Positions 6,289 through 55,015 of a stretch of DNA of 64,000 nucleotides are shown piece by piece. Made by a program: the position numbers and the translations under genes. The stretch lies in assembly GCA_000092065.1 (NCBI GenBank), contig CP000600.1; one strand, given 5' to 3'. Numbering within the stretch: position 1 is the first letter of the stretch; the number at the start of each line of letters is the position of its first letter. The DNA comes from Ostreococcus lucimarinus. Lineage: Eukaryota. Under the pieces are notes generated by a model that made no database searches, was not told the DNA's origin, and saw only the letters and a list, made by a program, of their open reading frames with translations.

Positions 6289-7344
6289 ATGGATCGACAC
6301 GCGTTCTTCGCCGCGCAGGCGTGGTTGACGGCGACGACGACGCGCGCGCGCGACGGCGCGCGTGCGAGCGACGACGGCGACGGCGACGACGGCGCGACGC
6401 GCGAGCGCGAGGAGATATACGCCGGGACGTGCTCGTTTTCGTGCGCGGACGAGGAGCAGTACGAGACGCGGGCGATCGCGACGATGGACGGCGACGACGC
6501 GGCGGACGACGGGGAGGACGACGCGGCGGACGACGGGGAGGAGGACGCGGCGGAGAATGGAAGAGGGCGACGGCGCGCGCGGCCGCGCGGCGCGCTGGCG
6601 AGAGATGCGCAGCACTTGACGTTCGGGACGACGGCGACGCTGCGCGACCCGGCGAGCGTTCGAGTGTCGTTCGCGGCGGTGAAAACGACGTTCGGAGCGA
6701 GCTCGGGAACGGGGTCGGGATCGACGAGCGTGGGGGATGCGACGACGGCGAACGCGCGCGCGCGAATTGAGCTCGAGTGTGAGCTCGACGGTCAGACGTA
6801 CAGGATGTCGACGCGAACGTGCCGCGCCGTCGTGAAATCGTTCAAGGAGACGGCGCGATCGGGGCACACCGAGGCTTTTCCGCGGTATTTGAGCGTCATT
6901 TTCCCTCACGTCACCATGAACGTATACTCTGCCGCGGAATCCGACGCTTCGTGGGACGGTTTGCGCGCGCTCGCGCGCGCTTTGACGGACCCCGCGCTCG
7001 CGACGACGAAGACGACGACGACGACGAGCGAAAACTACGACGACGGACACGACACCGACCCCGACGGAAACGATCCGAGTCCAGTGGGCGTGGGGAAGCC
7101 GAATCCTCTTCCACGTTCGATCGGGAACGAGATCGATCTCGAGACTGTCGCGCTCGCGGACGCCGACGCCTTTGCCGCGCAGCGTTTCGCCGCCGACGCT
7201 CTCTGCGACGCCGCTCGGCTCCTCGTCGCCGACGGCGATCCGTGGCGAACGCTTTCGCACGACTTGCTCGCTCACGGCGTGCGCGACGTTTTCGCGGACG
7301 ATCCATCCGCGTACGCCGGGCGCGCTTTTCCAGGCGACAAGTAA
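6289..7344 (+). CDS. Hypothetical protein
   Basis: ATG-initiated 351-aa ORF with non-repetitive composition in its second half (...IELECELDGQTYRMSTRTCRAVVKSFKETARSGHTEAFPRYLSVIFPHVTMNVYS...). The overlapping minus-strand ORF is R-rich junk. No family recognised. Confidence 0.35.
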   Translation: MDRHAFFAAQAWLTATTTRARDGARASDDGDGDDGATREREEIYAGTCSFSCADEEQYETRAIATMDGDDAADDGEDDAADDGEEDAAENGRGRRRARPRGALARDAQHLTFGTTATLRDPASVRVSFAAVKTTFGASSGTGSGSTSVGDATTANARARIELECELDGQTYRMSTRTCRAVVKSFKETARSGHTEAFPRYLSVIFPHVTMNVYSAAESDASWDGLRALARALTDPALATTKTTTTTSENYDDGHDTDPDGNDPSPVGVGKPNPLPRSIGNEIDLETVALADADAFAAQRFAADALCDAARLLVADGDPWRTLSHDLLAHGVRDVFADDPSAYAGRAFPGDK

Positions 7345-7703
7345 AAGCGTGGACATCCAACCGGGCGATGCGAATCGTCGTATGCGTAAACAGTATGCTC
7401 ATGCGAATCGACAGGGGAGGGCGCCAGCGTGGTTGTCGCGAGGCGCGCCCGCGCCCGTACACCGAGTCGTGCGCTTTCGTCCTGTCGGCGATCGCGCGCG
7501 CGCGGCGCCGAGCGCTCGATCGCGAACGTTCATCCGTAAACGTCTCGATCGCACGCGCGCGCGTCGCGGACGGACGCGTCGTCGCGCGAGCCAGGCGACG
7601 CGCAAAGATCGACGCTCACGCGTTTTCACCCTTCGCGCGTCGTTCACGCGTTTTCCGCGCTTGACGACGCCGCGCGCATCGCACGCGCGCGCATCGACGC
7701 GAA

Positions 7704-8801
7704 ATGAGCGGTGATGGTTTTTTTACGTTCACCGACGCCGATCCGAGCCAGTGGCTGCCCAAAGGGATCGTGGACGAGCGCGAGGAACACGATGCGGGGG
7801 CGTACGCGTCGTTCGCGCTCCCGCAAGGCTCGGCGAGCAGGAGCGCGAGCGACGACAATTCTAGAGGCTCGTTCGATTCGTTTGGGGTGAAATCAAAAGT
7901 GCTCGGGAGCGTGTTGTACGATGATGAAGGATTGATTCCGCTGGGGCTCGGTGGACACGCGTACGTGGACAAGTCGACGTCGCCGAAGAGCACGGCGTCG
8001 CCGACGGCGGCGTTCGTGGCGGATGCGGAGTTCGGCGCGGCGGCGGCGAGTGGATCGAGATTACGTGGGCCTTCTGGTCCTCGACGCGCTGGTCAAGGAG
8101 TCGAGGAAGAAGAACAGCAAGTGGCATCCATAGAGGTCATGGCGAACGGTGGTTTGCGACTGCGCGTGACGCTGCTCGCGGCGGGATTCGTCATCGGCGC
8201 CAGCGGAGCGTCGATTCGAGAAATTATGCGTCACACCGGTTCGACGATTCAGTCTTGGACGCAGCAACCCGAAATGGGGGTATATCATCGTCCATGCCGC
8301 GTTTTCTGCATCCAAGGCTTGCCCGAATCCGTCATGGCGGCCTCGAATATCATCCACGAAGCCGTCGAGCGATACAAGGAGTTGTGCGAAGGGAAGCGCC
8401 GCGGAGAGTTTGTGCAGCGATTGCAGTACATTCGCGGCGTTGAATTCTCGTACCAACCGCCTCCGAAAAATGCTGTACCAAATGCTGCCTCCGTGAATGG
8501 CGCCACTCGTCAAGGTACGAATCCACTCCTGATGCCGAGGCAACCGACGAATGCGGCGAATGAAACCATGCGCCTCCTCGCCGCCGCGCAGGCGCAGCGA
8601 GCCGCTATGCAACATTACCAAAACCTTGCGACACAATCCTACGCCGCGGGGTTAGCCGCCGGTGCTAAGATGGGTCATGTTCCGGCGATATCGGCGATGT
8701 CGGCGATGCCAGACTCTGAGAATCCTTTTGCCGCCGCTCAAATGCCGAACCCAAGTGATTTTTTCACCGCGTTCAGCGCGCAAACTCGCCCGAATGTTTG
8801 A
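7704..8801 (+). CDS. KH-domain RNA-binding protein
   Basis: LRLRVTLLAAGFVIGASGASIREIMRHTGSTIQSW... is a type-I KH motif (VIGxxGxxI). ATG at 7704. Confidence 0.6.
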   Translation: MSGDGFFTFTDADPSQWLPKGIVDEREEHDAGAYASFALPQGSASRSASDDNSRGSFDSFGVKSKVLGSVLYDDEGLIPLGLGGHAYVDKSTSPKSTASPTAAFVADAEFGAAAASGSRLRGPSGPRRAGQGVEEEEQQVASIEVMANGGLRLRVTLLAAGFVIGASGASIREIMRHTGSTIQSWTQQPEMGVYHRPCRVFCIQGLPESVMAASNIIHEAVERYKELCEGKRRGEFVQRLQYIRGVEFSYQPPPKNAVPNAASVNGATRQGTNPLLMPRQPTNAANETMRLLAAAQAQRAAMQHYQNLATQSYAAGLAAGAKMGHVPAISAMSAMPDSENPFAAAQMPNPSDFFTAFSAQTRPNV

Positions 8802-12008: not shown

Positions 12009-13196
12009 ATGCTCGTCCGACGCCCGCGCCGAACGGCGCGCGCGAGTGCGATCGAAAATGTGTTTCGAGCGCGATGCGCGCGGTTCGCGGACGCGGCGCG
12101 CGGTGGCGAGGCGAGCACGAGCGGAAAGATGCCAGAGAAAGATGGTGTCGTCGACGTCGAGGGAGCGAAAGCGAGAGCTCGCGCGCGCGCTGAGATGCTC
12201 AAAGATGAGGAGTTGGCGTCGAAAGTGCGAGCGATGATGGTTTTTGATCGAGACGTCGTGCGCGCGCACAGAGATCGAGCGGCGTACTTGCAGAATGAGG
12301 CGCTGAAACGCAGGCCCGAGCGCGCGCCGGATGGGTTGTTGGACGAGCTCGCGAGGCGTTTGTTGGATCGGTTGTTCGATATCAAACGCGGATTTAAGCG
12401 CGTGGTCGTGCTTGGTGGTGCGAGCGAAGCGATCACGCGCAGATTATTAGCGGAAAGGGACGATGTGGAGAAGATTGTCGTCGTGGATTTGTCTCAAGAT
12501 ATGCTCAATTTCGTCGAGCGGCGCATCGGAGCCGAGCCAAGACGGCGAGACGGAGCGCCTGTGGAGGTATTGTACGTGCAAGGAGACGAAGAGAATTTGC
12601 CCATTCAAGAAAATTCGGTAGATGCCGTGATTAGTTGCTTAGGATTGCACTGGGTGAACGATTTACCCGGCGCCATGTCGCGCGCGGCGGCGGCGCTCGT
12701 TCCGGATGGTCTCTTCTTGTCGTGTATTTTTGGTGGTAACACTTTACAGGAGCTTCGTGTGGCGTGCGCGCTCGCCGAGACCGAGCATGAGGGTGGTGTT
12801 AGCCCTCGAGTCTCGCCTTTAGCGCACGTGCGCGATTGTGGGAGCTTGCTCGGTCGAGCCAACCTCACGCTTCCCGCCGTCGACGTCGACATCGTCACCG
12901 TCGGCTACGCCTCTCCCGACGAGCTCGTCGAGCATTTGCGCGCCATGGCCGAGACCAACTCTGGGTTAATGCGTCGTCATCTTCTCCCTCGCGCCACCGC
13001 GCGCGCGGCGAGCGCGATGTATTCCCAAAAGTTCCCCGCCCCCGACGCCCCCGACCCCGGCGCCGTCGAAGCCACGTTTGAGATCCTGTACATGACCGGC
13101 TGGCGTCCTCATTCGAGTCAGCAGACGGCCAAGCAGCGCGGCACCGCCACGGTGTCTCTGAGCGACTTGCAAAAGCACCTCGACGGCGACGCGTGA
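12009..13196 (+). CDS. NDUFAF5: Complex I assembly factor NDUFAF5-like SAM-dependent methyltransferase (mitochondrial)
   Basis: VVDLSQDML...VISCLGLHWVNDLPGAMSRAAAALVPDGLF...ILYMTGWRPHSSQQTAKQRGTATVSLSDL aligns closely with NDUFAF5. Basic N-terminal leader. Confidence 0.8.
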   Translation: MLVRRPRRTARASAIENVFRARCARFADAARGGEASTSGKMPEKDGVVDVEGAKARARARAEMLKDEELASKVRAMMVFDRDVVRAHRDRAAYLQNEALKRRPERAPDGLLDELARRLLDRLFDIKRGFKRVVVLGGASEAITRRLLAERDDVEKIVVVDLSQDMLNFVERRIGAEPRRRDGAPVEVLYVQGDEENLPIQENSVDAVISCLGLHWVNDLPGAMSRAAAALVPDGLFLSCIFGGNTLQELRVACALAETEHEGGVSPRVSPLAHVRDCGSLLGRANLTLPAVDVDIVTVGYASPDELVEHLRAMAETNSGLMRRHLLPRATARAASAMYSQKFPAPDAPDPGAVEATFEILYMTGWRPHSSQQTAKQRGTATVSLSDLQKHLDGDA

Positions 13197-13225
13197 CGCT
13201 CGACGCAAGCCGCGCCGCCGCGACG

Positions 13226-13375
13226 GAGCGCGCCTTGTAACGCGTACGAGCAAACAGTCAGCCCAACCCGATGTGAAGTTTTATGATTCACGAAAAAGTC
13301 GGACAAAAGATTCGTTCCCGCGCATTTTCGGAGCGCGCCTTGTAACGCGTACGAGCAAACAGTCAGCCCAACCCG
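13226..13375. repeat. Direct duplication of a ~45-bp unit (gagcgcgccttgtaacgcgtacgagcaaacagtcagcccaacccg) flanking an AT-richer spacer
   Basis: The same 45-mer occurs at about 13226–13270 and about 13331–13375, in the NDUFAF5 3' / bHLH 5' intergenic region. It contains a TGTAA motif. Confidence 0.6.
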
Positions 13376-29663: not shown

Positions 29664-29951
29664 CTACTGCGGCGGCCCGCCCATTTGTTGCATCGATTGC
29701 GCGTTTAATTCCGCGAACCGCACCGACGTTCGCGCCGAGTGCTTCAGGAACTTTTCGCAGCACTTCGACACGCATCGCTCTTCGTCCTTCTCCAGCGTTT
29801 TCCTCCGAAACGACTGCACGCACGTCGAGAAGCACCGCTCCACCAAGTTGTTATACATCTTCAGGCTGTCTCGCGTCTGCATCGCTTCGATCATGCCCAT
29901 CATCTTCGCCTTGTCTTCCTCCGGGAACCCATCGAGCATGGCTGGGTCCAT
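29664..29951 (-). CDS. TIM9: Small Tim protein (Tim9/Tim10 family, twin CX3C)
   Basis: 95 aa. ...ERCFSTCVQSF...ERCVSKCCEKFLKHSARTSVRFAE has the twin Cx3C arrangement and the Tim9-like ...RISMRF.E tail. ATG confirmed. Confidence 0.8.
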   Translation of the reverse strand: MDPAMLDGFPEEDKAKMMGMIEAMQTRDSLKMYNNLVERCFSTCVQSFRRKTLEKDEERCVSKCCEKFLKHSARTSVRFAELNAQSMQQMGGPPQ

Positions 29952-30122
29952 GGCGACCTCGGTTTCGCTCGAGTCCGTCGCCGCGTCGCTCGGCGGCGTC
30001 TGCGGTGCCGCCGTCGCGGGCCGCCTTTCGACCCCGACCTAGGGTTCGGGCGCGCCCTCGATCGCGCGCGAAATCCGAGGCGCGGGCGTCCGAATGTGCC
30101 GGGGCGGGCGGGGCGGGTGTCC

Positions 30123-30165
30123 GAATGTCCGAATTGCGCGCACGTCCGCACTGTTTGCGCACACG
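30123..30165. promoter_or_regulatory. Conserved intergenic motif pair (CCGAATGTCCGAAT + CGCACTGTTTGCGCACACG) in the Tim9/AP2 divergent promoter
   Basis: The identical 19-mer and 14-mer recur at 52633–52677 in the DUF1279/MurE divergent promoter, in swapped order. CCGAATGT is locally repeated three times at 30090–30134. Confidence 0.35.
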
Positions 30166-30412
30166 ATACAGACGTCCGCGCGCGCGTGTGATCTTTCGCG
30201 CCGACGTCACGCGCGTCGAGAGGGCGCGCGCTCGGACGCGTCGCGCGCGAGCGGGGACGGGGCACAGCGCGACGCGACGGCGAGGAACGACGCGAAAGAT
30301 TGAGTCGCATCACCGCGCGCGCCGGGCGAGGACGACGCGCGCGAACGACGGCGAGAAGACGCGCGGAAGACGAGGGCGAAAGAGCGAGGGCGAAGGGCTC
30401 GGTGGGGGGAGT

Positions 30413-31528
30413 ATGAAGACGCGGGGACGGACGACGCGGGCGCGGTCGGAGGACGCGGGGGAAGAAAACGAGGGCGCGCGAGATGGAGACGCGGGGAAGG
30501 CGCCCGAGGGAGCGACGGAGGAAGCGGCGGTGCCGAATGATGATTTTCTGTGCCTGTTCGACGAGAGCGCGCGAGAAGAGCCGGCGACGCTGAACGGGGC
30601 GTGGGAGGACGTGTTCGCGCAGCATCATCACGCGAACGCACCGCAAGGCGGTGTGGAAGGAGGGTTTCATCAAGGCAGTGAAGACGCGGGTGAACACTTT
30701 CCACAATCTGGATACGTGGACACGGTGCAGTACAAGCTTCCGACGACGCGCCCAGGGGTGGCGTCGACGTCGAGAGGGCGCGTGACAAAATCGCGCAGCG
30801 GCACTAGAACGTCAGGTTCGAGGAAGCCAAAGCCGATATCTCAATCTTTACCACCACGCCCGCAAGCGATGATGGCTCCGCTACCTCAGCCGATGTCACC
30901 GATGATGTACCGTTCGCCGGGGGGCAAGCCGAGGTCTTCGAGGTACAACGGCGTGTGCCGCCACGCCAAGTCTGGGCGTTACGAGGCGCACGTCTGGTTG
31001 AGAGAGTCACGACGGCAAGTTTACCTAGGTGGACACCTGGAGGAAGAGTTTGCCGCCGAGGCTTTTGATATCATTGTGTTGAAGCTCGCACGCATCGGCG
31101 ATCGCTCTCGAACAGGAACGCGTCCGCTTAAAATGAACTTTCCCGAGTCTCGTTACGCAAACTTGATCGGTTTCATTGATTCTCTTACGCTCGATGAACT
31201 GATCATGGAGGTTCGCCGACATTCCGAAGGTTTTGCGAGGGGTAATTCGGGATACAGAGGGGTCACGCAACACTCGCCTAAGAAGTTTGAGGCGAGAGTC
31301 GGAGTGCCCCCGCAAAGCAAACACGTGTACTTGGGGCTCTACGATTCTGCCGAGAAAGCTGCGGTGGCGTACGACACCGCTCTCGTTCAAGCGAGGGGAC
31401 GGAGAGCTTCGACGAACTTTCCAATTTACAACTACGACGAGCACATTCGCCAATACGAAGAAGCAGTGGCGAGGAATCCGGCGCTCGAGCAACACGAGCA
31501 CGGGCAGTACGAAGATTTACAACGATGA
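30413..31528 (+). CDS. AP2/ERF-domain transcription factor (two AP2 domains)
   Basis: YNGVCRHAKSGRYEAHVWL....VYLGGHLEEEFAAEAFD and YRGVTQHSPKKFEARVGVP..SKHVYLGLYDSAEKAAVAYDTALVQARG are YRG/RAYD elements, present twice. Start is the first ATG downstream of Tim9 (MKTRGR...); the upstream part of the track ORF overlaps Tim9 in antisense. Confidence 0.7.
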   Translation: MKTRGRTTRARSEDAGEENEGARDGDAGKAPEGATEEAAVPNDDFLCLFDESAREEPATLNGAWEDVFAQHHHANAPQGGVEGGFHQGSEDAGEHFPQSGYVDTVQYKLPTTRPGVASTSRGRVTKSRSGTRTSGSRKPKPISQSLPPRPQAMMAPLPQPMSPMMYRSPGGKPRSSRYNGVCRHAKSGRYEAHVWLRESRRQVYLGGHLEEEFAAEAFDIIVLKLARIGDRSRTGTRPLKMNFPESRYANLIGFIDSLTLDELIMEVRRHSEGFARGNSGYRGVTQHSPKKFEARVGVPPQSKHVYLGLYDSAEKAAVAYDTALVQARGRRASTNFPIYNYDEHIRQYEEAVARNPALEQHEHGQYEDLQR

Positions 31529-51809: not shown

Positions 51810-51826
51810 TCACTCACTCGCCCGGT

Positions 51827-51857
<31 letters not shown>

Positions 51858-52394
51858 GTCGACCTCCTTGCCGAACCACTTGGCCACCATCGGCGTCAGC
51901 GCCACCGTCGGCCCGAACCTAATCGGCGAACTCGCCTTATGCGCCGCGTACGCCAGCGCGAACGTCCCGAACTGTTCGCTCGTCGCGTTCACGCTGATCC
52001 CAATCTTATCCAACAGGCTCGCCACGTCCACCCCGCCCGCGACGAGAAAATAAAACACCGTGATCGAAATCAAGCTCAGCGAAATCGACGTCGCCAGATA
52101 CGCCGACCCGTACCGCTTGAGCAATTTCTTCGCCATGTCCATGCGCGACGTCCCGAGCTCTTCCGCGCCCTCGCTCGCGCCCTCGCCCGTCTCCGTCCCT
52201 CCCGCCGCGCCGCCGCCGTTCTTGAACACCTTCCACAGCCCCGCCTCGAGTCCCCACTTTCGCGTCGTCGCGTCGATCTCTCGCTCCTTCGCGTTCTTCG
52301 CCTTCGCCCGCGTCGTCGTCGTCGTTCGCGCCGTCGCGCGTCGCCGTCGCGTCGCGCGTCGCGCGCGCTTCGCCGTTCGCGTCGCGTCGTCCAT
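51810..52394 (-). CDS. DUF1279/FAM210-family mitochondrial membrane protein
   Basis: C-terminal LLKRYGSAYLATSISLSLISITVFYFLVAGGVDVASLLDKIGISVN matches the FAM210/DUF1279 core. Start at an in-frame ATG (MDDATRTAKR...). The rest of the 649-aa track ORF is antisense to MurE and was discarded. Confidence 0.6.
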
Positions 52395-52397
52395 CGC

Positions 52398-52436
<39 letters not shown>

Positions 52437-52632
52437 GATTCGCGTCGTCGCGATTCGCGTCGTCGCGCGCGTCGTCGCGCGTCGCGATCGCGCGCCGTTC
52501 GCGACGGGCGCGATTCTCGCGCGGTGCATCGCGCGCGCGGCGTCGCGCGCGCGGCGCAATCGCGACGCCGCGGATCGCGACGACGCGCATCGCGACGACG
52601 CGATTGCGCCGGACGATGCATAAAACAATACG

Positions 52633-52677
52633 CGCACTGTTTGCGCACACGTATGTAGACACCGAATGTCCGAATAC
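52633..52677. promoter_or_regulatory. Second copy of the CGCACTGTTTGCGCACACG + CCGAATGTCCGAAT motif pair (DUF1279/MurE divergent promoter)
   Basis: Exact 19-mer and 14-mer shared with 30123–30165. Confidence 0.35.
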
Positions 52678-52802
52678 ACACCTTTCATATAATAACCACA
52701 CAAACACCGATCGAGCAAACCCAGCCCGACGCCGCGTCGGATTCGCCAACCGCCGGCGGCGGCGCGCGATCGCACACGACGCCGCGCCGCGCGGACGCCG
52801 CG

Positions 52803-54941
52803 ATGTCGCGCGTCTCGAGCGCGACGCGCCGATGCGTCGCGCGACGCCCGTCCGCGGCGACGCTCGGACGCGCGACGGGACGACCGCGCGCGACGACGCG
52901 ACGACGGACGACGCGCGGTTGCCCTCGCGAGGACGCGCGAGGACGCGCGACGCGCGCGCGAGCGACGACGCGGGACGCGCGCGCGAGCGACGACGACGAG
53001 GGATGCGACGACGACGCGCGCGACGACGTCGGGACGGGCGCGGCGCGCGCGCACGCGGAGATCGGGCGCGAGGAGGATGAGGAGGGCGACGCGGAGGCGC
53101 TGCTGCGAGAGATTTTCGAAGACGCGGGCGTCGACGCGAGGTGGATCGCGCTGGAGGACGACGAGGACGTGGAGATATCGGGAATAGCGAACGATGTGAA
53201 CGCGCTGTTGAGCGGGGATCTGTTCGTGTGCGGGTCGGCGCGAGAGGGAGGGGCGATGGAGGACGCGGCGAGGGAAGCCGTGGCGGCGGGCGCGGTGGCG
53301 GTGGTTTCGGAACGCGCGATCGAGGGGTTGGCGGATGTCCCGATCGCCGTGGTCGAGGACGTGGACGAGGCGTTGGCGGATATCGCGAGAGTGTTTTACG
53401 GCGATCCGTCCAAGGCGCTGACGGCGATCGCGCTGACGGGGAGCGTGGGGAAGACGACGACGTCGTACCTCGTGAAAGCCGTCTTCGAGGAGGCGGATAT
53501 TCGCATGGGGCTCGTCGGGTCGAATGGGAATTACGTCGGCGATGAACTCAAGCTCACGGCGCAGGGTGGGGTGTGGGAGAGCGATGAAGAAGACACCACG
53601 CGCGGTCGCACGAGCACGGCGCCGGGGTGGTTGGCACCGTATCGAGGCAAGTACGAATTCGAAGAGCGCGGTTCGGACGCGCTTCAGTTTCAGCAACTCA
53701 CCGCGGGCATCGCCGATAACGGCGCGCAGGCGGCGGTGATGGAGGTGAGCGCGGAACAAGTGCGGCGAAAGGCGACGCGTGGGATGAACTTTGACATCGT
53801 CGCACTGACGTCACCGCTCGAAGGCCCGGACGCGATGAGCGATCGGCGTAAGGATTATCGAGGGTTGGACGCTGAGTACTCGTCGCACGTCGCCGAGGTC
53901 TTCAAAGCGCTCGAAGACGCCGAGACGCAGCGAGCGGTGATCAACGTGGATGCGATTGATGACAACGATAAGACCCCTTATCACGAGTTATGCAAAGAAC
54001 ACGCCAAGGGCGTTCCTCAGTTGACGTATTCTGTGGATCCCGAAAACCCGAACGGGGCGGACGTTTACCCCGCGCGCGTCGACTATTCCCTCTTCGAGAC
54101 GGCGGTGTCGCTGAGCACGCCCGCTGGCAACGTCGAGGTCGTCGTCGGTCTCGTGGGTGAGCATATGGTCAACGCGATCTGTTGCGCTACCGCGATAGGT
54201 CTCGCGGCGGAAATTCCCCTCGACGTCATCGCCGCCGGATTGGAGGCGACGGATTCGATTCCAGGGCGCATGGAGCTCGTGGACGCGGGTCAAGATTTTT
54301 CGGTGTTGGTGGATAGCGCGAACACTCCCGAAGCGATCAGAAGTGTGATTGATAGCGTCAAAGCGACGAATTGTAGGCGAGTCATCACCGTCATCGGTTG
54401 TGAGGGCGAAATGGCGGAGAGCGAACGAGGGCAGCGCGCCGTCATCGGTAAGACGGTGCACGACCATTCGGACGTCGTCTTCGTCACGAACGATTCCCCC
54501 AAGGCTGAGGACCCGTACAAAATCCTTGAAGACATCTGCGCTGGATTTAGAGACGAAATTTATTCCAAGCCCGGCATGGAGGACGAGGCGCTGTTCCCAT
54601 TCTTGAAGGACATGTACGAGGTGCACGAAAACGCCCAATACGAGTGCATGCGGCTTCAAAACTTAGTTCGTAGATACGTCATGGTGGACCGGTACCACGC
54701 CATTCGCGCCGCCATCGGTATGGCGGAGCGCGATGACGTGGTGCTCATCATAGGTCGCGGCGCGAAGGATTACTTTGTCGTCGGTCGCGAGAAGCATTGG
54801 TTCGACGACGTCGTCGAGGCTCGAGACGCGCTTCAGAAAATCGGCGCCATTCAGGACAGCGGCGTCGACACCCACAACCTTCCGTGGATGTCCCTCGCCG
54901 CTCGAGCCACCAATCCGGGCGCGGGTAACTTACTCGGATAA
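52803..54941 (+). CDS. murE: MurE-like Mur ligase (UDP-MurNAc-tripeptide synthetase homolog), organelle-targeted
   Basis: Mur ligase N, central and C domains: GDLFVCGSAREGG...GAVAVVSE...VPIAVVEDVDEALADIARVFYGDPSKALTAIALTGSVGKTTTSYL.... The MurE-specific DNPR motif region is conserved as VFVTNDSPKAEDPYKILEDICAG (E. coli: [22 protein letters not shown]). An R/T/A-rich ~90-aa leader precedes it. ATG at 52803. Confidence 0.8.
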   Translation: MSRVSSATRRCVARRPSAATLGRATGRPRATTRRRTTRGCPREDARGRATRARATTRDARASDDDEGCDDDARDDVGTGAARAHAEIGREEDEEGDAEALLREIFEDAGVDARWIALEDDEDVEISGIANDVNALLSGDLFVCGSAREGGAMEDAAREAVAAGAVAVVSERAIEGLADVPIAVVEDVDEALADIARVFYGDPSKALTAIALTGSVGKTTTSYLVKAVFEEADIRMGLVGSNGNYVGDELKLTAQGGVWESDEEDTTRGRTSTAPGWLAPYRGKYEFEERGSDALQFQQLTAGIADNGAQAAVMEVSAEQVRRKATRGMNFDIVALTSPLEGPDAMSDRRKDYRGLDAEYSSHVAEVFKALEDAETQRAVINVDAIDDNDKTPYHELCKEHAKGVPQLTYSVDPENPNGADVYPARVDYSLFETAVSLSTPAGNVEVVVGLVGEHMVNAICCATAIGLAAEIPLDVIAAGLEATDSIPGRMELVDAGQDFSVLVDSANTPEAIRSVIDSVKATNCRRVITVIGCEGEMAESERGQRAVIGKTVHDHSDVVFVTNDSPKAEDPYKILEDICAGFRDEIYSKPGMEDEALFPFLKDMYEVHENAQYECMRLQNLVRRYVMVDRYHAIRAAIGMAERDDVVLIIGRGAKDYFVVGREKHWFDDVVEARDALQKIGAIQDSGVDTHNLPWMSLAARATNPGAGNLLG

Positions 54942-54943
54942 CC

Positions 54944-55015
54944 GCGCCGTCGCGCCGTCGCGCCGTCGCGCCGTCGCGCCGTCGCGCCGTCGCGCCGTCG
55001 CGCGCGCGCGCGCGC
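54944..55015. repeat. (CGCCGTCG)~7 octamer tandem repeat followed by a (CG)n run, immediately 3' of the MurE stop
   Basis: Seen directly in the sequence. Confidence 0.85.

What the first reader, a model, noticed from the sequence alone, without database searches (positions are those of the whole stretch)
30090..30170. Shared 19-nt + 14-nt motif in two unrelated bidirectional promoters
CGCACTGTTTGCGCACACG and CCGAATGTCCGAAT occur exactly in both the Tim9/AP2 intergenic region (30123–30165, with CCGAATGT repeated three times) and the DUF1279/MurE intergenic region (52633–52677), in opposite relative order. Exact 19-mers are unlikely by chance in 64 kb. This could be a core promoter or TSS element, a transcription-factor site, or the remnant of a small mobile element that targets promoters.
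Basis: seen in the sequence. Interest (0 to 1): 0.55.

Follow-up and report, generated by a model that had tools for sequence, protein, structure and literature searches.

The report
Dispersed 19-bp promoter word in Ostreococcus
The two shared motifs are real, and the 19-base one is an exactly repeated word sitting between back-to-back genes at 14 or more places in Ostreococcus genomes, most likely a docking site for an unknown DNA-binding protein, with the 14-base motif as its occasional partner site.

Summary
Observation confirmed. The window is Ostreococcus lucimarinus-type nuclear DNA. CGCACTGTTTGCGCACACG (m1) lies at 30147-30165 and 52633-52651. CCGAATGTCCGAAT (m2) lies at 30121-30134 and 52662-52675. 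All four are on the + strand, and the order is swapped between the two promoters.

A metagenome scan for m1 (A or G at position 17) found 12 further distinct Ostreococcus-type loci. There is no similarity outside the 19 bases. All 14 loci are intergenic. All 10 whose neighbours can be resolved lie between divergent genes, about 50-400 bp from the start codons. The neighbouring genes have unrelated functions (H4|H3, TrpB|DBP5, GluRS, ClpP, ASF1, RNase Z and others).

Degenerate copies keep the core ACTGTTT(G/A)C. Three promoters carry two same-strand copies 93-105 bp apart.

m2 was found only beside m1, at three loci, 10-17 bp away, in three different arrangements. It is nearly invariant across strains.

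The orthologous O. tauri promoters lack both motifs. No RNA family, terminal inverted repeats or target-site duplications were found.

Best reading: a lineage-specific two-part cis-regulatory module bound by sequence-specific proteins. This is a new member of a known kind. The factor, the position relative to transcription starts and the origin of the copies are unresolved.

The parts
30147..30165 (+). m1 copy 1: 19-mer CGCACTGTTTGCGCACACG in the Tim9|AP2 divergent intergenic region
   Evidence: Exact match. Kept in 11 of 12 near-identical strains, with one C-to-T change in L004. The most divergent lineage, L001, keeps CGgACTGTTTGCGCgtgCG.
30121..30134 (+). m2 copy 1: CCGAATGTCCGAAT (8-bp tandem unit CCGAATGT / CCGAAT), 12 nt upstream of m1
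   Evidence: Exact match. Invariant in 12 strains; only the last base changes in L001.
30090..30097 (+). Extra single CCGAATGT unit 23 nt upstream of m2 copy 1
   Evidence: Less conserved: 3 of 11 columns vary among close strains, and L001 has TTCGAATC..TCGAATCGAA here.
52633..52651 (+). m1 copy 2 in the DUF1279|MurE divergent intergenic region
   Evidence: Exact match. Most strains read ...GCGCACGCG, with G at position 17. The L237/L238 lineage has TTTGCACATAC / TTTGTACATAC, which are changes at CpG sites.
52662..52675 (+). m2 copy 2, 10 nt downstream of m1 copy 2 and followed by a TATA-like CATATAATAAC
   Evidence: Exact match. Invariant in all 24 strain sequences.
7379..7397 (-). Degenerate m1-like copy CATACTGTTTACGCATACG (4 mismatches, core ACTGTTTAC), flanked by two ATGCGAATCG units at 7368-7377 and 7401-7410
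   Evidence: Lies between the stop of ORF 6289-7344 (+) and the ATG of ORF 7704-8801 (+).
13243..13261 (-). Degenerate m1-like copy CTGACTGTTTGCTCGTACG (5 mismatches) inside the first unit (13225-13270) of a 46-nt direct repeat
   Evidence: Intergenic, downstream of the stop of ORF 12009-13196 (+).
13348..13366 (-). Second identical degenerate m1-like copy, in the second 46-nt unit (13330-13375), 105 nt from the first
29664..29951 (-). Tim9 gene; its ATG is 196 nt left of m1 copy 1
   Evidence: identical to O. lucimarinus XP_001422729.
30414..31528 (+). AP2-domain gene; its ATG is about 249 nt right of m1 copy 1
   Evidence: 371-aa gene call, PF00847.
51810..52527 (-). DUF1279/FAM210 gene (start codon uncertain: 52527 or further in)
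   Evidence: PF06916. Gene callers extend the ORF through the motifs, which is probably spurious.
52803..54941 (+). MurE-like Mur ligase gene; its ATG is 152 nt right of m1 copy 2

Best explanation
m1 (consensus CGCAC-TGTTTG-CGCAC-RCG, core ACTGTTT[G/A]C) is a dispersed cis-element of Ostreococcus (O. lucimarinus-type) promoters. It is most likely the binding site of a sequence-specific DNA-binding protein with a long footprint. Its internal CGCAC...CGCAC direct repeat, 11 bp apart, suggests two contacts on one face of the helix. It lies in the short intergenic regions between divergently transcribed genes of unrelated function. In this it behaves like a general promoter-organising or regulatory site rather than a pathway-specific switch. 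m2 (CCGAATGT CCGAAT, an 8-bp tandem) is a second, separate site for a partner factor. It occurs only 10-17 bp from m1, in any order and orientation, so the two form a flexible two-site module.

Shown: the copies, their positions, their sharp boundaries, the m1-m2 association, and the conservation pattern.

Inferred: that proteins bind, and that binding affects transcription or promoter chromatin.
For: (1) m1 is non-random in the window.

(2) A metagenome scan for the exact 19-mer (R at position 17) returned the two window loci plus 12 other distinct loci. These have the Ostreococcus signature: GC 0.57-0.66 and CpG observed/expected 1.54-1.90. One such locus lies in the same assemblies as window-type locus 1 but on other contigs of 276-734 kb. 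Flanking proteins cluster with O. lucimarinus and O. tauri proteins.

(3) No column within 90 nt on either side is conserved next to the motif.

(4) All 14 loci are intergenic. All 10 resolvable cases lie between divergent genes with ATGs about 50-400 bp away (one at 610). The genes are functionally unrelated.

(5) 5 of the 6 ACTGTTTRC cores in the window are intergenic.

(6) Orthologous copies persist while adjacent sequence diverges: in the H4|H3 promoter (L267 vs L296) and the TrpB|DBP5 promoter (L289 vs L334-337). The core ACTGTTTG is invariant in 37 strain sequences at the two window loci.

(7) m2 at up to 2 mismatches occurs in about 350 kb of Ostreococcus-type DNA only next to m1, at three loci in three different arrangements. 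It varies in 1 of 28 alignment columns against 28% for the surrounding intergenic DNA.

(8) There are no Rfam or tRNA hits.
Against: No binding protein is known and none was tested.

At orthologous sites m1 as a whole is not less variable than its surroundings: 9 of 38 columns vary against 28%. One lineage lost the GCGC part at locus 2 through CpG transitions. Constraint is therefore clear only for the 8-9 bp core and for m2.

The mismatch spectrum looks bimodal: many exact or 1-mismatch copies, a few with 3-5 mismatches. This is unusual for an ordinary transcription-factor site and would also fit recent copying followed by decay. However, the scan required exact matches, so the spectrum is biased.

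The motif is absent from the orthologous O. tauri promoters. No transcription-start or expression data were available.
Confidence: 0.6

Rival explanations
1. Core-promoter or transcription-start element. The 19-mer positions the start site, or the pre-initiation complex, of one or both genes of a bidirectional pair. The 16-19 nt INR-FPR element of oomycetes is an example of this kind.
For: The motif is always upstream of start codons in very short intergenic regions. It is long and sharply bounded. Three promoters have two copies 93-105 bp apart, roughly the spacing expected for paired divergent starts. A TATA-like box follows m2 at locus 2.
Against: Paired copies lie on the same strand, not mirrored toward the two genes. 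The motif's strand shows no relation to the nearer gene, and distances to ATGs range from about 47 to 610 bp. Only a small minority of promoters carry it: 2 exact and 3 degenerate copies in 64 kb.
Confidence: 0.13
2. Relic of a templated or mobile insertion. The identical 19-mers are identical by descent: footprints, solo termini or filler DNA of an element that lands in open promoter chromatin. They are decaying neutrally.
For: Fourteen exact copies stand against only a few 3-5-mismatch copies. Whole-motif variability at orthologous sites is similar to the background. One lineage shows CpG decay. The motif is absent from the O. tauri orthologous promoters. Local tandem duplications carry the motif along, in 83-nt and 46-nt units.
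Against: There is no homology beyond 19 nt, no inverted partner and no consistent target-site duplication; only 2 of 13 loci have matching 3-nt flanks, in CG-rich DNA. Nineteen bp is far shorter than any known autonomous or miniature element. The core is invariant across 37 strain sequences, and the motif is kept in the H4|H3 promoter where both immediate flanks diverged. A separate 14-mer sits tightly next to it in three different arrangements, which one inserted unit does not explain.
Confidence: 0.12
3. Chromatin or replication landmark rather than a transcription site: for example an origin-recognition site, or a boundary or nucleosome-excluding site that happens to lie in nucleosome-free bidirectional promoters.
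For: The flanking genes have no common function. The motif prefers divergent intergenic regions. The word is long and information-rich, with a few tens of copies per 13-Mb genome at most.
Against: No direct evidence. Sequence-defined origins are known only in budding yeasts (my own knowledge). Two exact copies lie 22.5 kb apart with further degenerate copies in the same 64 kb, which is denser than needed for origins.
Confidence: 0.07
4. RNA-level element: a 5'-UTR motif, a small non-coding RNA, or a short coding piece.
For: The motifs lie within about 50-250 nt of start codons and could be transcribed. Automatic gene callers sometimes run ORFs through them.
Against: There are no Rfam or tRNA hits. 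Flanks are not conserved between copies. The reading frame and the strand relative to the downstream gene differ between loci. Ostreococcus lacks RNAi machinery (my own knowledge).
Confidence: 0.04
5. Chance coincidence of two words in a CG-rich genome.
For: A 14-mer shared twice in 64 kb is not unusual by itself. The genome is full of low-complexity CG-rich repeats.
Against: 0 of 100 shuffles gave 2 matches for the 19-mer. There are 12 further exact copies elsewhere in Ostreococcus DNA. m2 lies within 10-17 nt of m1 at three loci and nowhere else.
Confidence: 0.01

Closest known systems
General regulatory factor sites of yeast promoters (Reb1, Abf1, Rap1 sites)
   Same: Long, well-defined words placed in the nucleosome-free region of many functionally unrelated, often bidirectional, promoters. 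They frequently sit next to a second site in flexible arrangement.
   Different: The sequence is unrelated. No binding protein is known in Ostreococcus, and no effect on chromatin or transcription has been shown. The comparison rests on my own knowledge of yeast, not on a test here.
Plant telo-box (AAACCCTA) with site II / other paired promoter words
   Same: A short dispersed promoter word that co-occurs with a partner word in variable order. A telo-box-like CCTAGGGTT sits 107 nt upstream of m1 at locus 1, and the L001 lineage has GGGTTTAGGGTTTAGG there.
   Different: m1 and m2 are different sequences. A telo-box is present at only 2 of 14 m1 loci. m1 is twice as long.
Oomycete INR-FPR core promoter (16-19 nt)
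   Same: A lineage-specific promoter word of about 19 nt in a compact genome.
   Different: INR-FPR is anchored at the start site and oriented with the gene. Here orientation and distance to the gene are not fixed, and only a minority of promoters carry the word.
Forkhead-type consensus TRTTKRY (TGTTTGC / TGTTTAC)
   Same: The m1 core reads TGTTTGC. The degenerate copies read TGTTTAC, which is exactly the allowed G/A alternation.
   Different: This is a resemblance recalled from memory. Forkhead-domain proteins are not known in green algae (my own knowledge). The conserved word extends well beyond 7 bp. Not tested.
Miniature transposable elements / solo terminal repeats
   Same: Many identical short copies dispersed over chromosomes, in non-coding DNA.
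   Different: There are no terminal inverted repeats, no target-site duplications and no internal sequence. The length is only 19 bp, and copies are kept at orthologous sites.
Plant/algal snRNA upstream sequence element (type-3 promoter USE)
   Same: A conserved upstream word followed, at locus 2, by a TATA-like box.
   Different: The USE reported for O. lucimarinus is CCCRTAA (PMC8287931), not m1 or m2. No snRNA or other RNA gene lies downstream.

Membership tests
Sequence-specific protein-binding cis-regulatory element | Recurs at many independent loci far more often than chance, with sharp boundaries | tested here: met
   Fourteen distinct loci carry the exact 19-mer and no flank column is conserved.
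Sequence-specific protein-binding cis-regulatory element | Located in promoter / upstream regions rather than at random | tested here: met
   14 of 14 loci are intergenic. 10 of 10 resolvable loci lie between divergent genes. 5 of 6 core matches in the window are intergenic.
Sequence-specific protein-binding cis-regulatory element | Evolves more slowly than the surrounding non-coding DNA | tested here: inconclusive
   Variable alignment columns: m2 1 of 28 and core ACTGTTTG 0 of 16, against 28% background. Whole m1 is 9 of 38, no better than background. m1 is kept in the H4|H3 and TrpB|DBP5 promoters while neighbouring bases diverge.
Sequence-specific protein-binding cis-regulatory element | A protein binds it and binding changes expression | not testable with these tools
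   Needs EMSA, DAP-seq or a reporter assay.
Core promoter / initiator element | Fixed orientation and distance relative to the transcription start | tested here: not met
   Tested against ATGs only, because no start-site data exist. Distances are about 47-610 bp, the strand is unrelated to the nearer gene, and duplicate copies lie on the same strand.
MITE / transposon remnant | Terminal inverted repeats and target-site duplication, with shared internal or flanking sequence | tested here: not met
   No flank similarity. No inverted partner nearby. Matching 3-nt flanks at only 2 of 13 loci.
Known RNA family (Rfam) or tRNA-derived element | Match to a covariance model or a tRNA fold | tested here: not met
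   0 Rfam hits at gathering threshold and 0 tRNAs in the window.
E2F site | TTTSSCGC consensus | tested here: not met
   m1 reads TTTGCGC, one S short of the consensus. TTTCCCGC, TTTGGCGC and GCGGGAA are absent within 250 nt of the 14 copies. The consensus is from my own knowledge.
snRNA-type USE (type-3 promoter) | USE consensus of the species upstream of a TATA box and an snRNA gene | tested here: not met
   The O. lucimarinus USE is CCCRTAA. No RNA gene lies downstream.
LUX/GARP binding site (GATWCG) for m2 | CGAATC / GATTCG core | tested here: not met
   m2 reads CGAATG, one base off. True CGAATC units occur in the L001 variant of the distal unit and beside the degenerate copy at 7368-7410. 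GATTCG occurs 12 times near m1 against 6.9 expected, which is only a weak excess.

The most novel reading that the evidence does not exclude
The 19-mer and the 14-mer are docking sites of an Ostreococcus-lineage-specific promoter-organising system that marks bidirectional promoters, and a giant virus has copied the system. A 105-kb NCLDV contig comes from the same JGI sample as a chromosome-scale O. lucimarinus-type assembly. In what looks like its terminal inverted repeat it carries three units of CCGAATGTCCGAA, about 15 nt of spacer, then TGTGCGCAAC (which shares TGTGCGCAA with the reverse complement of m1). It also carries ten tandem GTACCGAATGTCCGAACC units and green-algal telomere-like TTTAGGG repeats. 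If real, a virus lacking its own RNA polymerase would be recruiting a host promoter factor through arrays of the host's own cis-element.
Probability: 0.12. Interest if true: 0.75.

Novelty: new member of a known kind. Interest (0 to 1): 0.5.

Why it matters
Ostreococcus is the smallest free-living eukaryote and a transformable model alga. Its intergenic regions are about 200 bp and it has few transcription factors, yet hardly any of its cis-elements have been defined. This finding gives an unusually clean handle: a 19-bp word repeated exactly in at least 14 bidirectional promoters, plus a strictly associated 14-bp partner. It can be used to fish out the binding proteins, to ask how two genes share one tiny promoter, and to follow motif turnover between sister species, since the O. 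tauri orthologous promoters carry a different shared word. It does not change any general principle. It is a good, testable lead in algal regulatory genomics.

Tried and rejected
- Rfam at gathering threshold and the tRNA scan of the window found nothing.
- The whole-window repeat finder was swamped by CG-rich low-complexity families and did not report the motifs.
- My own k-mer enrichment over 194-214 kb was likewise dominated by CG-rich and coding words.
- 14-mer scans of viral contigs returned essentially chance hits from phages, including iteron-like arrays of GTCCGAAT in unrelated phages. This showed that 14-mers are too short for the big collections, so the single metagenome scan used the 19-mer.
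- About 40 of the 83 metagenome hits are one recurrent non-Ostreococcus locus that lacks the CG-rich Ostreococcus signature. About a dozen more are singletons of the same kind. All were discarded on CpG observed/expected and context.
- L305 (GC 0.48) could not be assigned to an organism.
- Orthologous O. tauri regions carry neither motif. L014 and L015 have different synteny.
- The virus capsid homology search gave no named relatives. The virus module TGTGCGCAACCCTAAAC is otherwise found only in an unrelated phage coding region.
- Literature searches for the words in either orientation found only primers. The 2009 Ostreococcus footprinting paper is not held.
The CCE9901 ALG9-like protein was not on record.
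- Telo-box, E2F, CCAAT and ACGT-type words are not enriched around m1.

Full report
**Source and observation**

The window is nuclear DNA of an Ostreococcus lucimarinus-type alga. The Tim9 protein encoded at 29664-29951 (-) is identical to O. lucimarinus CCE9901 XP_001422729. The same protein occurs on hundreds of marine metagenome contigs.

- The 19-mer CGCACTGTTTGCGCACACG (here m1) lies at 30147-30165 and 52633-52651.
- The 14-mer CCGAATGTCCGAAT (m2) lies at 30121-30134 and 52662-52675.
- All four are on the + strand. m2 precedes m1 by 12 nt at the first locus and follows it by 10 nt at the second.
- No other site in the window comes within 3 mismatches of m1, and no shuffle reproduced two copies.
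- The 14-mer alone would not be significant. Its adjacency to m1 at both loci is.
- Small corrections: CCGAATGT occurs twice at locus 1 (30090, 30121), and the third unit is CCGAAT+TG. The composites span 30121-30165 and 52633-52675.
- The gene labels hold: Tim9|AP2 and DUF1279(FAM210)|MurE, both divergent pairs.

**m1 is a dispersed word, not a two-promoter oddity**

Test scans showed that 14-mers drown in chance hits in the large collections. I therefore spent the one metagenome scan on CGCACTGTTTGCGCACRCG. It returned 83 stretches.
- About 40 are one recurrent non-Ostreococcus locus.
- About a dozen are singletons of the same kind.
- Seven are the two window loci.
- 24 fall into 12 new distinct loci with the Ostreococcus signature: GC 0.57-0.66 and CpG observed/expected 1.54-1.90, like the known loci.

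Flanking proteins are in 90%-identity clusters with O. lucimarinus CCE9901 or O. tauri proteins. One new locus (TrpB|DBP5) lies in the same three long-contig assemblies (ERZ10646592, ERZ10646569, ERZ10646630) that hold window-type locus 1, but on other contigs of 276-734 kb. One genome therefore carries copies on separate large contigs, probably different chromosomes. For a 13-Mb genome the chance expectation for this word is about 2e-4 copies.

**Anatomy and placement**

Aligning the 14 copies on the motif shows no conserved column next to it within 90 nt on either side. The element is 19 bp with sharp edges.

All 14 copies are intergenic. In the 10 cases where both neighbours are visible, the genes point away from the motif. 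Possible start codons lie about 50-400 bp away, with one at 610.

The gene pairs are:
- Tim9|AP2
- DUF1279|MurE
- RPA1|Bd3614-type deaminase
- RNase Z|coiled-coil protein
- histone H4|H3
- GluRS|alpha/beta hydrolase
- CUE|ALG9-like
- ASF1|LON-domain protein
- TrpB|DBP5
- RING|unknown

ABCG, ClpP, Pho88 and one more gene sit at contig ends, with only one neighbour visible. I see no functional theme. The motif's strand shows no relation to the nearer gene.

The word has an internal direct repeat, CGCAC at positions 1-5 and 12-16, around TGTTTG.

Degenerate copies keep the core ACTGTTT(G/A)C and a terminal (A/G)CG:
- In the window: CATACTGTTTACGCATACG at 7379-7397 (-), and CTGACTGTTTGCTCGTACG twice, at 13243-13261 and 13348-13366 (-). 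The last two lie in a 46-nt direct repeat.
- Elsewhere: CACACTGTTTACCCACACG, CGCACTGTCTGCGCACACG and CACACTGTTTGCGCACACG.

In the RNase Z and GluRS promoters a second near-perfect copy lies 93-95 nt upstream on the same strand. In the RNase Z promoter this arose by tandem duplication of an 83-nt block. Of six ACTGTTTRC cores in the window, five are intergenic and one is in the last codons of a gene.

**m2 is a satellite of m1**

m2 (up to 2 mismatches) occurs at only three loci, each time next to m1:
- Locus 1: m2, 12 nt, m1.
- Locus 2: m1, 10 nt, m2.
- RPA1|deaminase promoter: m1, 17 nt, m2 on the opposite strand.

CGAAT pairs at 8-bp spacing are otherwise almost absent. Three arrangements of the same two words argue for two separable sites rather than one inserted unit.

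**Conservation**

Strain sequences came from metagenomes: 13 for locus 1 and 24 for locus 2.
- m2 varies in 1 of 28 alignment columns.
- The m1 core ACTGTTTG varies in 0 of 16 columns.
- The rest of the two intergenic regions varies in 28% of columns.
- m1 as a whole varies in 9 of 38 columns, no better than background.

The divergent lineage L001 reads CGgACTGTTTGCGCgtgCG at locus 1. Most strains have G at position 17 at locus 2. The L237/L238 lineage has lost the GCGC part through CpG transitions.

Conversely, in the H4|H3 promoter the 19-mer is intact between two lineages whose immediately adjacent bases differ on both sides. In the TrpB|DBP5 promoter a related lineage keeps CGgACTGTTTGCcCACACG.

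The orthologous O. tauri promoters (Tim9|AP2 and TrpB|DBP5) cannot be aligned and carry neither motif. Constraint is therefore clear for the core and for m2. The outer and 3' positions of m1 turn over.

**Interpretation**

The best-supported reading is a lineage-specific, two-part cis-regulatory module. m1 would be the site of a factor with a long footprint, used in a subset of mostly bidirectional promoters of housekeeping genes. m2 would be the site of a partner. This works like the general regulatory factor sites of yeast promoters, or like plant telo-box/site II pairs. That is an analogy, not membership.

Rivals:
- **Strict start-site element.** This fits poorly with same-strand duplicates and variable distances. 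It cannot be excluded without 5'-end data.
- **Mobile or templated-insertion origin.** There are no inverted repeats, no target duplications and no shared flanks. Still, the many exact copies against few decayed ones, and the near-neutral behaviour of the 3' half, keep it alive as an account of how copies arise.
- **RNA-level roles.** These are unlikely: no Rfam hits, no flank conservation, inconsistent strand and frame.
- **Other known words.** The snRNA USE of O. lucimarinus is CCCRTAA, the E2F consensus is missed by one base, and known plant words are not enriched nearby. The core matches the forkhead-type consensus TRTTKRY, including the G/A alternation. I regard this as a resemblance only.

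I found no mention of either word in the searchable literature. The 2009 Ostreococcus footprinting paper could not be read. The motif may have been listed there.

**Side observation: a giant-virus contig**

One viral hit is not obviously chance. Two NCLDV contigs (GC 0.32, with a capsid-like gene) come from JGI sample 3300046167, which also yielded a 545-kb O. lucimarinus-type contig. Both contigs end with the same sequence, which contains:
- degenerate TTTAGGG repeats;
- three units of CCGAATGTCCGAA(T), about 15 nt of spacer, then TGTGCGCAACCCTAAAC;
- ten tandem GTACCGAATGTCCGAACC units.

TGTGCGCAA is shared with the reverse complement of m1. The virus has no named relatives, and nothing similar exists elsewhere in IMG/VR. 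This could be host-motif mimicry by a virus that depends on host transcription, or it could be coincidence. I give it about 0.12.

**Verdict**

This is a new member of a known kind (promoter cis-element), of moderate interest, and directly testable.

Noticed in passing
L126 13700-14337 and L136 9400-9795 (IMGVR_UViG_3300046167_000859 / _000786): Giant-virus contigs (GC 0.32) come from the same sample as an O. lucimarinus-type chromosome-scale contig. Both end in an identical region with TTTAGGG-like repeats, three [CCGAATGTCCGAA + about 15 nt + TGTGCGCAACCCTAAAC] units and ten tandem GTACCGAATGTCCGAACC units. This may be a terminal inverted repeat that mimics the host m2/m1 module.
   Followed up: partly
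L011 3741 and L328 2418 (O. tauri); L285 37; L267 11601: The two O. tauri promoters orthologous to m1-bearing promoters both contain TCATCACTCGT(C/G)G instead of m1. In 214 kb of O. lucimarinus-type DNA the same 10-mer occurs only twice, both times close to m1 (6 nt away in L285; in the H4|H3 promoter in L267). It may be a third promoter word, with motif turnover between sister species.
   Followed up: partly
window 13225-13270 and 13330-13375: An exact 46-nt direct repeat (GGAGCGCGCCTTGTAACGCGTACGAGCAAACAGTCAGCCCAACCCG), with units 105 nt apart, lies in the intergenic region after ORF 12009-13196. Each unit carries a degenerate m1 core.
   Followed up: partly
window 7368-7410: A degenerate m1 copy is bracketed by two ATGCGAATCG units. 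These contain CGAATC, the reverse complement of the plant LUX/GARP site GATTCG. This hints that CGAAT-type partner sites come in variants.
   Followed up: no
window 30038-30046; L001 orthologous position: A telo-box-like CCTAGGGTT lies 107 nt upstream of m1 at locus 1. In the divergent lineage L001 it is two full telomere units (GGGTTTAGGGTTTAGG).
   Followed up: partly
L237 and L238, about 2830-2850 (locus 2 orthologues): In one Ostreococcus lineage the 3' half of m1 changed at three CpG sites within 10 nt (GCGCACGCG to GCACATACA), while the surrounding promoter is nearly unchanged. The pattern looks like methyl-CpG deamination after loss of protection.
   Followed up: no
L256 (reverse strand), about 8400-8600: Tandem duplication of an 83-nt promoter block (GACCGAGTCCCCCCGTACCTTTGAGTCATGACCC...m1) in the RNase Z promoter gives two m1 copies 95 nt apart.
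   Followed up: partly
window 54943-55011: A perfect tandem array of the 8-nt unit CGCGCCGT (about 8 copies) lies just after the MurE stop codon.
   Followed up: no
window 51810-53759 (-) and the L227-L244 gene calls: Automatic gene calls extend the DUF1279 ORF upstream through m1 and m2, almost to the MurE start, because the GC-rich DNA lacks stop codons. The start codons of these models are unreliable.
   Followed up: no
L130/L184, L133, L108/L163, L160 (viral-contig hits): Unrelated phages carry iteron-like arrays of GTCCGAAT(G) units. This shows the same octamer is used as a repeated protein-binding word elsewhere. No relation to Ostreococcus.
   Followed up: partly
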